Positions 27,401 to 30,400 of a DNA stretch of 64,000 nt are shown here, in pieces. Source of the DNA: Ginglymostoma cirratum. Lineage: Eukaryota. The DNA lies in the NCBI GenBank assembly GCA_024137785.1, contig JAHRHZ010000003.1, positions 9,574,897 to 9,638,896 of the forward strand. Direction: 5' to 3'. Position 1 is the first letter of the stretch. Each line of letters starts with the position of its first letter. The position numbers were made by a program, and so were the translations under genes. Under the pieces are notes generated by a model, which saw only the letters and a program-made list of their open reading frames with translations, had not been told where the DNA came from and made no database searches.

Positions 27401-30400
27401 TTCTAGTCAGATGGACAAGGACACAGAGGACAATGTGACACAACATTTCACAAGCTGCCCAACCTGAGAAATGATGCTTGTCTATTTTATACGATGGTCC
27501 CAGTCACACAAGATGATATCTGTGTTTTCCATTCAGAATGGTTCTGTCCTGTCTCATGGGTGGACAATTGATTAGGAATCTTTTACAACTTGCCATAGGA
27601 TGCTGGCCAGAAAGGGAAGTTTACGGTCAGCAGTGCAATGGGGAATGGGCATTGTCAGAGCAAGAGGTGGATTGCTCGGAAAAGGTGAGCTTGCAAAAGA
27701 CGATGAACAGCCGTAGAAGAAAACCTAGCATCTGATGTAGTTCAAGGCTATTTGGAGACGAAGTCTAAGAATTCTGCCTTAGGTTCCTGACTTTGTTTTA
27801 GAAGCGGTTTAATTGCACCAGAGAAACAAGTTTTAGATTTGGGAAGTTGGCTAAATCCACACATTGTTTTTGGCAAAATTTCAATCTTGACTGTGTGTCT
27901 CTTTCCGGAAACAGTCAGAGATAGGAGGAACTGCAGATGCTGGAGAATCTGGGATAACAAGGTGTAGAGCTGGATGAACCCAGCAGGCCAAGCAGCATCA
28001 GAGGAGCAGGAAGGCTGACATTTCGGGCCTAGAAGGGTTTCTGAAGAAGGGTCTAGGCCCAAAACGTCAGCCTTCCTGCTCCTCTGATGCTGCTTGGCCT
28101 GCTGTGTTCATCCAGCTCTACACCTTGTTATCCTGGATACAGTCAGTTCCTTTTTGATCTGTAGTTTTAGATTGATAGAGTATCATTGGCTGTATCTCTG
28201 GATGTTGTCTGTTGATTATATATTGTCACTTTGTCTTTTCCACTGGCTAGTAAAGAGGTACGCAAAGCATGGGGTAAAGAAACAACTGAGGCTCCAGTAG
28301 TCATCATAGCGCATCATCTTTGGTGTCCCCCGATGATGCCTGTTCATGCCCCACTGTCCACATCCACATCTCTACCCCATTCTCAAGCTGAACCATAATG
28401 TGACATATTTGGCATGCTGTTTGACTTTGAGCTGAGCCTCACATTGGCCATTCTCCATATCACCATTGCATTGTGCTCAAGTGCCCTTCCTAAATGTCAA
28501 TGTGTTCAAACCTCAGCTAACACAATTTTGGTCCTTTTACAGAACACTCTCCTTGCTGACCAATAGTTTTTCTCACGTTACATTCTCTAAGTCCTGAATC
28601 CATGGTCGAATCTGTTTGAAGACTGCCAAACAGACCAATCTTGCATGAGCTCTTTCTGTTGTGAATTGCCAGAAAAATGCAGAGAACACTAATTCCACTG
28701 CTTTTCTCAGATCAGATGGACAGTTTTTGTAGTCTAACGATATAATGATCAGGGAACTGCTTAACCCCCTTGCAGAATGTTCCCCATCCCATTTTGATGT
28801 TAGAAGAACAGCGTGCCAAAGAAAAGAGACTTTTCTGAACATATGGATCATCAGAACATGCAGATCATTAGAACATGGAGAGTTTTAAGTGAGAAAGGAT
28901 GAGTCCAGGTTGGGTTGAAGTTTGAAGTTTTAAAAATAAGATTTCCAATTTTAATCCACCTGTTGAGGCATTCAGTGAAGCAGGGACTGGGACTGACATG
29001 AACCGAAGCATCTAAGTGCCCAATCAATCTCTTCCAAGGAAGTGGGTTGTATATCCATCCAATAAGGAGGCTGAATGTGAAATCGTCATTTGATCTTTTC
29101 AACTTCAGCTATGTCTGTTCAAGTTGTGAAGAGCTGAATTCCTGTATATCTACCTTGTGGACCACTCTCCCTTCATGAGAAACCCTGCTAATTGGGGTCA
29201 CCGCAGCCCAAAACTTTCCCATGAGAACTCTGCTGATAGCTCCGTTACACTTTCAGTCACAGAAGCTGGGCGTTTGTTTTTCATGTGCTTTTCTGAGACT
29301 ATTTTGAGGTTAAAAATTGTTATTAAAAATTCGAAGACTTCATGTGACCTTGGCGAAAACCAGGTCATAGAAAGTGGTCCTTCTAAACTGGCTGAGGAGA
29401 ATTTTTGGTAAACAGTTGGTAACTGAGTTGTTCCTTGCATAATGAATGTACTTGGAAGAAATTTCTCTTGCAGTCCTCAGTAAAACCGGACAGATTATTT
29501 CTGTGGGAAGAGTAAAAGTTTAGTTACAACGTTATTTTCCAAATATTTTAGGGTCTGATATTATATGATGACATCACAGACAACAAGGACCAAAAGTGGA
29601 AGAACAAGGAGCCTGAGATATTTGATAGTTTTGCCAAGTGTTTTTTGATCTTCAAACTGCAGAAGGATGTGGTAAATGTTCTACACCCGAACACAGCAGG
29701 CGATCATGACTCTTTGGCTGCGAATAAGGCAAAGGAAATTGGGCGTGGTGGCCATGCAGAAACATGTGACCATGCAACTTGTGCTGCAGTAAAGGTTAAA
29801 GACTGGAAGGCTGTCAGAGTGGATCTGGTCGTTGCACCCTTCAGCCAGTATGCCTATGCCTTATTAGGATGGACAGGCTCACAGGTAAGTAGAATCAAGA
29901 GCAGCAAGATTGTATTGTACGATATTTAAACTCAAAATGTAACAATGGAAAATCTAAATGTTAGAGCTGACCAATTTAGAAATTGACCAGGACTGGCTAC
30001 CATTTGGATCAATTCATTTTGTGGCTTGTGTTTGAAAACAGTCTGTCTGTCTGTCTTTCCTTTACAAACACTGGTACATGTACTTCCGTTTCCAATATCT
30101 TCAGTTTGACGATCTGTAAGGTGGAATGTGAAGAGAATTTGTTTGTACAGAGTCCCATGGATATTAATATTGAAGCTGTTGATCAGCTGAGAAAAGATGC
30201 TTCTGATTCTCAAGATTTTGTTTTTAGACTCAATATTTTTGGGTTCAAGCCCTGATATGACTTCATGCACATAATTTAGGTTGACTGTGAAATAACTACC
30301 TTTTCAGACAAGTTTTTTTTGGTAAGCCATTAACAAAACAGGACCATCTGCACCTGTTTGTTGAAACTCTGACAATTTTCTGATGCATGTTTAATAAGTG

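What the first reader, a model, noticed from the sequence alone, without database searches (positions are those of the whole stretch)
29624..29659. Pol mu with the TdT-type Lys at the Arg387 'brake' position ([12 protein letters not shown])
Seen: codon AAG at 29636-29638 in DSFAKCF. Established (recalled): human Pol mu has DAFERSF, where Arg387 limits untemplated addition; TdT has [12 protein letters not shown], and Pol mu R387K has increased terminal transferase activity. His329 (GHDVD) and the GW sugar gate are retained here. Inference: this shark Pol mu may be a stronger template-independent transferase, relevant to N-addition and long CDR3s in shark Ig/IgNAR/TCR, and may preserve the pre-duplication ancestral state.
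Basis: partly seen in the sequence, partly recalled or inferred. Interest (0 to 1): 0.7.

Follow-up and report, generated by a model that had tools for sequence, protein, structure and literature searches.

The report
Shark polymerase mu with TdT-type lysine
This is the shark's DNA-break-repair enzyme polymerase mu, which, like that of every shark and ray examined, has a lysine where the human enzyme has a 'brake' arginine; the swap likely arose again in sharks and rays, and it may let the enzyme add more untemplated DNA letters, an effect not yet tested.

Summary
AAG at 29636-29638 encodes Lys387 of an intact, spliced, 11-exon, 525-aa POLM gene and aligns to human Pol mu Arg387. The gene is POLM, not DNTT: tree, AU test (p=7e-9), POLD2/NUDCD3 synteny and a separate DNTT in the genome agree. 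Lys is shared by 23 of 23 elasmobranch POLM records that hold the motif; true sharks also lost Glu386 (AKC/TKC). 'Preserved pre-duplication state' is not favoured: elephant shark, 118 of 120 ray-finned fish POLMs, lamprey, hagfish, amphioxus and echinoderms have Arg, so Lys likely re-arose (parsimony 4 against 5 steps; a tie on one unrejected topology). Lys also occurs in coelacanth, opossum and pomfret POLM and in template-dependent Pol beta and lambda. The enzyme keeps Pol mu's 5'-phosphate ligands and SSH thumb motif and has a 19-residue Loop1 (TdT: 21). Raised terminal transferase activity is plausible (about 50%) but untested; a role in N-addition is speculative, since sharks have TdT. 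This scan already reported the same swap in two other shark genomes.

The parts
6242..33248 (+). POLM gene, 11 coding exons (6242-6447, 15184-15352, 19697-19795, 20383-20553, 20703-20774, 21632-21752, 23654-23786, 27087-27189, 29552-29884, 31397-31480, 33162-33248), 525 aa, all 10 introns GT-AG
   Evidence: tblastn of shark orthologues, splice-site model with one open frame; last three introns seen spliced in RNA
29636..29638 (+). AAG, Lys387 (human Pol mu Arg387; mouse TdT Lys403)
29633..29641 (+). SD1 tripeptide A-K-C (human Pol mu ERS, most Pol mu ERC, most TdT QKC, teleost TdT AKC or SKC)
   Evidence: SD1 definition from PMC2724280 passages
29567..29623 (+). Loop1 segment, 19 residues between GLILY and the SD1 Asp (21 in 16 of 16 TdTs; 20 in human Pol mu); lacks equivalents of TdT Ser383 and Phe385
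   Evidence: human count from the alignment
29867..29872 (+). Gly-Trp sugar gate of GWTGS (human Gly433-Trp434; the role is recalled)
27087..27189 (+). Exon 8 with GHDVD (His330 = human His329, catalytic aspartates)
20434..20535 (+). 5'-phosphate ligands Arg176 (20434-20436) and His209 (20533-20535) = human Arg175 and His208, Pol mu type
   Evidence: function from PMC7508851 and PMC5622330 passages
31451..31459 (+). SD2 thumb mini-loop S-S-H (Pol mu type NSH/SSH; TdT DNH)
41926..42123 (+). Start of the neighbouring NUDCD3-like gene (synteny marker; end approximate)
   Evidence: Pfam Nudc_N E=4.5e-24; Atlas top cluster 'NudC domain-containing protein 3', score 0.92

Best explanation
This is the single POLM orthologue of a carpet shark, predicted to act as a gap-filling polymerase in end joining, and its Lys387 likely re-arose on the stem of sharks and rays and would at most loosen, not remove, the brake on untemplated addition. 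Shown: gene identity, intact frame, splicing, Lys in all sampled elasmobranchs, Arg in elephant shark and in the non-jawed deuterostomes examined, and Pol mu-type 5'-phosphate pocket, thumb motif and Loop1 length. Inferred from human and mouse mutants: the enzyme binds a 5'-phosphorylated downstream end through Arg176/His209 and copies a template when one is offered. On single-stranded 3' ends, Lys387 would hold the primer less firmly than Arg, so His330-assisted translocation and tailing would run faster than in a K387R revertant. Loss of Glu386 in true sharks would point the same way.
For: Orthology: the window protein is sister to Stegostoma POLM (94% identity; 100/99), inside elasmobranch POLM (100/99), whose sister is Callorhinchus POLM (100/100) (same groups). 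Window plus TdT as a clade is rejected, p-AU 7e-9. A separate DNTT lies on contig C139, its exon 9 being 100% identical to a named nurse-shark TdT. POLD2 is about 0.53 Mb away on the same contig and a NUDCD3-like gene 8.7 kb downstream; POLM, POLD2 and NUDCD3 are all at human 7p13 (PMC6916753 tables). Lamprey, hagfish, amphioxus, starfish, urchin and crinoid have R, 6 of 6 named non-jawed deuterostomes. Parsimony needs 4 steps with R at the duplication against 5 with K on both standard topologies. Elasmobranch POLM plus TdT without Callorhinchus: p-AU 0.024. Arg175 and His208 equivalents are in 13 of 13 elasmobranch rows; Arg175 is in 0 of 16 TdTs. TdT Q402A behaves as wild type and Q402E is much weaker (PMC2724280).
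Against: No activity was measured. The parsimony margin is one step, and it is a tie (4 and 4) if chondrichthyan POLM is sister to TdT, a topology the data do not reject (p-AU 0.47); the base of the vertebrate POLM/TdT tree is unresolved. A first AU test of elasmobranch POLM plus TdT on a smaller set gave p=0.056. Elasmobranch POLM holds the TdT state at more diagnostic sites (4 of 10 at the strict threshold, 4 of 23 and 5 of 29 at looser ones) than any other POLM clade (0 to 3). Protostome and sponge homologues mostly have K, so K is the older state at greater depth. Only one holocephalan species was seen.
Confidence: 0.7

Rival explanations
1. Neutral drift: Arg-to-Lys is a conservative one-base change at a site where Lys is the X-family default, and in the shark protein it has no meaningful effect on activity.
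For: Lys sits here in template-dependent Pol beta and Pol lambda (PMC2938210) and in most protostome homologues. POLM also has K in coelacanth, Gracilinanus and Pampus, T in frogs and Haplophryne, S in Macrotis. The shark Loop1 is 2 residues shorter than TdT's and lacks Ser383 and Phe385 equivalents; such changes weaken TdT (PMC2724280). R387K did not rescue the human F389G mutant (PMC4081086), so the effect depends on context.
Against: Arg is kept in 118 of 120 ray-finned fish POLMs and Lys in all 23 elasmobranch records with the motif, so the site is constrained within clades. The human swap alone gives up to 100-fold.
Confidence: 0.4
2. Elasmobranch Pol mu has been tuned into a second, TdT-like N-nucleotide adder that contributes to junction diversity of shark Ig, IgNAR or TCR.
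For: The SD1 heptapeptide of several shark POLMs (DHFAKCF in Mustelus and Carcharodon) is identical to that of several teleost TdT-type proteins. Two TdT-type changes map to the elasmobranch stem, R387K and E474D. Shark light-chain joints are rich in N additions (review PMC5192425 passages). Mammalian Pol mu acts at light-chain joints (recalled).
Against: The genome has a DNTT with a canonical SD1 exon, and the review credits TdT with the N additions. The 5'-phosphate pocket and SSH motif are Pol mu type. Bamboo-shark TCR-alpha keeps the microhomology-directed joining signature (PMC10322711 section 7), although its POLM has Lys. The tissue of expression is unknown.
Confidence: 0.13
3. Lys is inherited from the common ancestor of POLM and DNTT (or chondrichthyan POLM is closer to TdT), with Arg regained in elephant shark and bony vertebrates.
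For: Chondrichthyan POLM plus TdT is not rejected (p-AU 0.47) and parsimony ties on that tree. Coelacanth POLM has K. Chondrichthyan POLM shares T149 and K254 with TdT.
Against: 6 of 6 named non-jawed deuterostomes have R. Synteny ties the shark gene to mammalian POLM. It costs one more step on the standard trees.
Confidence: 0.17
4. Gene conversion from DNTT put the Lys into POLM.
For: CFLIFKL in carpet sharks resembles TdT CFLILKL.
Against: The 12-codon SD1 block is 25 of 36 bases identical to the genome's own DNTT, lower than the conserved RVD-GWTGS block (64 of 84); the Lys codons differ (AAG, AAA). The genes lie on different contigs. Other sharks have CFSIFKL. An ancient event would not be detectable this way.
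Confidence: 0.04

Closest known systems
Elasmobranch POLM as annotated (Rhincodon typus P0003, Stegostoma tigrinum P0004)
   Same: 95% identity over exon 9 and 94% over the whole protein respectively; same [12 protein letters not shown]
   Different: Nothing at the sites examined
Human DNA polymerase mu
   Same: BRCT plus X-family core, Arg175, His208, Lys249, His329, Phe385, Phe389, Arg416, GW gate, Arg442/445/446, Ser458-His459; 7p13-type neighbours
   Different: Lys for Arg387, Ala for Glu386, Cys for Ser388, Ser for Asn457, Lys for Arg253 and Arg449, Loop1 one residue shorter, about 31 more residues between SD1 and Arg416
Human Pol mu R387K mutant (Andrade 2009; seen only through citing papers)
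   Same: Lys at 387 in a Pol mu frame
   Different: An engineered single change in the human background; the shark protein is about 47% identical to mammalian Pol mu, so transfer of the effect is inferred
Terminal deoxynucleotidyl transferase (DNTT)
   Same: Lys at SD1, Cys after it, His329, Asp at window position 474; SD1 tripeptide AKC as in some teleost TdTs
   Different: TdT has DNH, a 21-residue Loop1 and no Arg175; it forms its own clade (100/99) and is a separate gene in this genome

Membership tests
Vertebrate POLM (Pol mu) | Groups with annotated POLM orthologues, apart from TdT | tested here: met
   Nested in chondrichthyan POLM with full support; window plus TdT rejected p=7e-9. Monophyly of all POLM is only weakly supported (SH-aLRT 84; unresolved)
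Vertebrate POLM (Pol mu) | Synteny with POLD2 and NUDCD3 | tested here: met
   human bands from PMC6916753
Vertebrate POLM (Pol mu) | 5'-phosphate ligands Arg175 and His208 | tested here: met
   Arg176, His209
Vertebrate POLM (Pol mu) | SD2 thumb motif (N/S)SH | tested here: met
   SSH, as in most teleost POLM
Vertebrate POLM (Pol mu) | SD1 motif ER(S/C) with Arg387 | tested here: not met
   AKC; the motif is not universal in POLM either: EKC, ETC and ESC occur in other orthologues, so it describes the mammalian and majority state
Vertebrate POLM (Pol mu) | Template-directed gap filling and end joining with limited terminal transferase activity | not testable with these tools
   needs purified enzyme
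DNTT (TdT) | Member of the TdT clade | tested here: not met
   own DNTT on C139
DNTT (TdT) | SD1 Lys403 | tested here: met
   Lys387
DNTT (TdT) | SD2 DNH | tested here: not met
   SSH against DNH in 16 of 16 TdT rows
DNTT (TdT) | 21-residue Loop1 with S/A-T-hydrophobic anchor | tested here: not met
   19 residues, N-K-D at the anchor
DNTT (TdT) | Ordered Loop1 blocking the template path | tested here: inconclusive
   Loop1 has low confidence in models of both Stegostoma POLM and nurse-shark TdT (block pLDDT 50 and 46)
DNTT (TdT) | Expression restricted to developing lymphocytes | not testable with these tools
   runs are coded and carry no tissue

The most novel reading that the evidence does not exclude
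Sharks and rays have convergently rebuilt a TdT-type SD1 in Pol mu (R387K on the elasmobranch stem, then loss of Glu386 in true sharks), giving a dual enzyme that keeps the 5'-phosphate grip for end joining but adds N nucleotides strongly, and that supplies part of the N diversity of shark light chains and long IgNAR/Ig CDR3s alongside TdT.
Probability: 0.13. Interest if true: 0.7.

Novelty: new variant of a known kind. Interest (0 to 1): 0.35.

Why it matters
Human R387K was made in the lab to show that one residue limits untemplated addition by Pol mu. A whole vertebrate clade that carries the swap naturally, next to a sister lineage (elephant shark) that does not, is a ready test of whether that brake is a general rule of Pol mu or a feature of the human protein. 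If the shark enzyme does tail strongly, N-addition in sharks could have two sources, which bears on shark antibody diversity and on how TdT evolved from a Pol mu-like ancestor. If not, it shows the limit of reading activity from a single motif residue.

Tried and rejected
'The gene is DNTT': rejected. Sequencing error or private variant: rejected. Recent gene conversion from DNTT: no sign. Structure prediction: AlphaFold2 models of Stegostoma POLM and nurse-shark TdT both leave Loop1 at low confidence, and Foldseek matches Pol mu and TdT about equally, so they do not separate the activities. The first diagnostic-site counts used a Callorhinchus model with a wrong exon 3 (P0029) and overstated elasmobranch-specific TdT states; they were redone with P0028. 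The 'careful' mixture-model tree did not finish, and its quick stand-in put lamprey among tetrapods; the lamprey record has an atypical C-terminus. Andrade 2009 is not held, so its data and alignments were not seen. No run holding the exon is on record as RNA in the index, and run X19 had no reads on the stretch, so it is no test. Expression of the downstream neighbour was not examined. Literature searches listed no paper on the shark residue; these cover open-access full text only, and supplementary alignments (for example of PMC4081086 and PMC5622330) were not opened and may already show it.

Full report
Observation. Window 29624-29659 reads [12 protein letters not shown], with AAG at 29636-29638. 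It lies in an AG/GT-bounded exon (29552-29884). With shark orthologues as guides, 11 exons from 6242 to 33248 join into one open frame of 525 residues with ten GT-AG introns. Raw reads of RNA run X18 cross the exon 8-9, 9-10 and 10-11 joints (21, 31 and 34 reads), and single contigs of X1 and X3 span these four exons with no differing letters; X19 had no reads on the stretch. Counting along the alignment of the whale-shark orthologue to full-length human Pol mu (7co6_A) puts the Lys on Arg387; mouse TdT has Lys there. GHDVD and GWTGS are present.

Identity. The best named relatives are elasmobranch Pol mu records (best 120 of 205 hits kept). The genome holds a separate DNTT on contig C139, whose matching exon reads DHFQKCF and is 100% identical to a named nurse-shark TdT, and a Pol lambda-like hit on C140 (the lambda label rests on recalled motifs). 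Trees were built without the three SD1 columns. The window protein is sister to Stegostoma POLM, inside elasmobranch POLM, with Callorhinchus POLM as sister (100/100; same groups). Forcing it into TdT is rejected (p-AU 7e-9). POLD2 lies about 0.53 Mb away on the same contig and a NUDCD3-like gene 8.7 kb downstream; all three are at human 7p13 (PMC6916753 tables). The gene is POLM.

Distribution of the residue. Elasmobranch POLM: Lys in 23 of 25 records from 15 named species plus one unnamed record; 2 isoforms lack the segment; tripeptides AKC 11, TKC 2, EKC 10 (rays). Callorhinchus: ERC in 3 of 3 records of one species. Ray-finned fish POLM (best 120 of 1030 hits): R 118, K 1, T 1. TdT (best 120 of 276): K in 120. 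Of 150 cluster representatives I looked up names for 30. Lamprey, hagfish, amphioxus, starfish, sea urchin, crinoid and Trichoplax have Arg. The named Lys carriers outside vertebrates are molluscs, an annelid, a centipede, crustaceans and a sponge; a millipede has Gln. Several Lys carriers stayed unnamed, so a Lys-bearing deuterostome is not excluded. [quoted passage not shown]

Ancestry. The simplest history is Lys deep in the X family, Arg in deuterostomes, then Lys again in TdT, on the elasmobranch stem and in scattered POLMs. On both standard topologies Arg at the POLM/DNTT duplication costs 4 steps and Lys 5. Elasmobranch POLM plus TdT without Callorhinchus gave p-AU 0.056 on a 29-row set with a faulty Callorhinchus model and 0.024 on the corrected 34-row set. 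Against this reading: the base of the vertebrate tree is unresolved, chondrichthyan POLM plus TdT is not rejected (p=0.47), and parsimony ties on that tree. Elasmobranch POLM also holds TdT states at 4 to 5 diagnostic sites against 0 to 3 in other clades; two of these are shared with Callorhinchus and two, R387K and E474D, are specific and conservative. No recent gene conversion is visible. I put re-acquisition at about 0.8.

Mechanism. In human Pol mu, Arg387 contacts the primer and brakes its translocation while His329 promotes it (PMC3592450 passages); R387K raises terminal transferase activity up to 100-fold (PMC4081086 passages citing Andrade 2009; the original is not held). In mouse TdT, Q402A is like wild type, Q402E is much weaker and K403R alters the activity (PMC2724280 passages), so the shark AKC tripeptide is of the TdT-permissive kind. 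The other determinants are of Pol mu type. Arg175 and His208, which bind the 5'-phosphate and are needed for end joining (PMC7508851 and PMC5622330 passages), are in 13 of 13 elasmobranch rows; Arg175 is in 0 of 16 TdTs. The thumb motif is SSH against DNH. Loop1 is 19 residues against 21 in 16 of 16 TdTs and lacks the Ser383 and Phe385 equivalents, and shortening or changing these weakens TdT. The expected enzyme is therefore a template-using repair polymerase with possibly looser tailing. Structure models could not test this.

Immune relevance. Shark light-chain and IgNAR joints carry extensive N additions, credited to TdT (review PMC5192425 passages; the primary paper was seen by title only). 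Bamboo-shark TCR-alpha keeps a microhomology-joining signature (PMC10322711 section 7) although its POLM has Lys. With a normal DNTT present, a second N-adder is not needed, and tissue expression could not be read from coded runs.

What is known. The gene is annotated as Pol mu in many sharks. Searches listed no paper on the shark residue (listings only; open-access library; supplements not opened). PMC3526283, PMC13433984 and PMC12362244 were read in passages and added nothing specific. This scan noted the same swap in two other shark genomes, with similar verdicts; those notes are not independent support, and my reading was set down before seeing them.

Verdict. A real, clade-wide natural R387K in an otherwise orthodox Pol mu; likely convergent with TdT and not a relic; function untested. 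New variant of a known kind, interest 0.35.

Noticed in passing
window 29660-29662; proteins P0016, P0027: Annotated Stegostoma and Mustelus POLM isoforms lack the first 37 or so residues of exon 9, Loop1 and SD1 included, consistent with an internal CAG acceptor that the window also has. This joint is not among those listed (37 joints were not shown).
   Followed up: partly
window 41926-42123 and 47591-48034 (+): NUDCD3-like gene downstream of POLM; the second stretch is a probable further exon with no Pfam hit.
   Followed up: partly
proteins P0050, P0068, P0069, P0244: Frog POLM has DGHETCY: Thr at 387 and His at Phe385, a larger departure from the human motif than the shark's.
   Followed up: no
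protein P0031: The lungfish record named 'DNA nucleotidylexotransferase-like' has ERC and NSH and groups with coelacanth POLM; it is probably POLM.
   Followed up: partly
protein P0399: Basking-shark TdT has EKC in SD1, the same tripeptide as ray POLM; mouse TdT Q402E is a weak enzyme.
   Followed up: no
protein P0398: A Scyliorhinus torazame TdT record of 858 aa carries two extra Pfam domains (PF17919, PF17917; retroelement-type by recall), probably a gene-model fusion.
   Followed up: no
window about 27900-28140: A high-copy short repeat in intron 8 draws thousands of RNA reads. LINE-like reverse-transcriptase fragments lie at about 2900-3700, 24400-25350 and 50660-51150 (family recognised by recall).
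   Followed up: no
window about 29660-29800: About 31 more residues than human between SD1 and Arg416 (Loop2 region), low confidence in the model of the Stegostoma orthologue.
   Followed up: no
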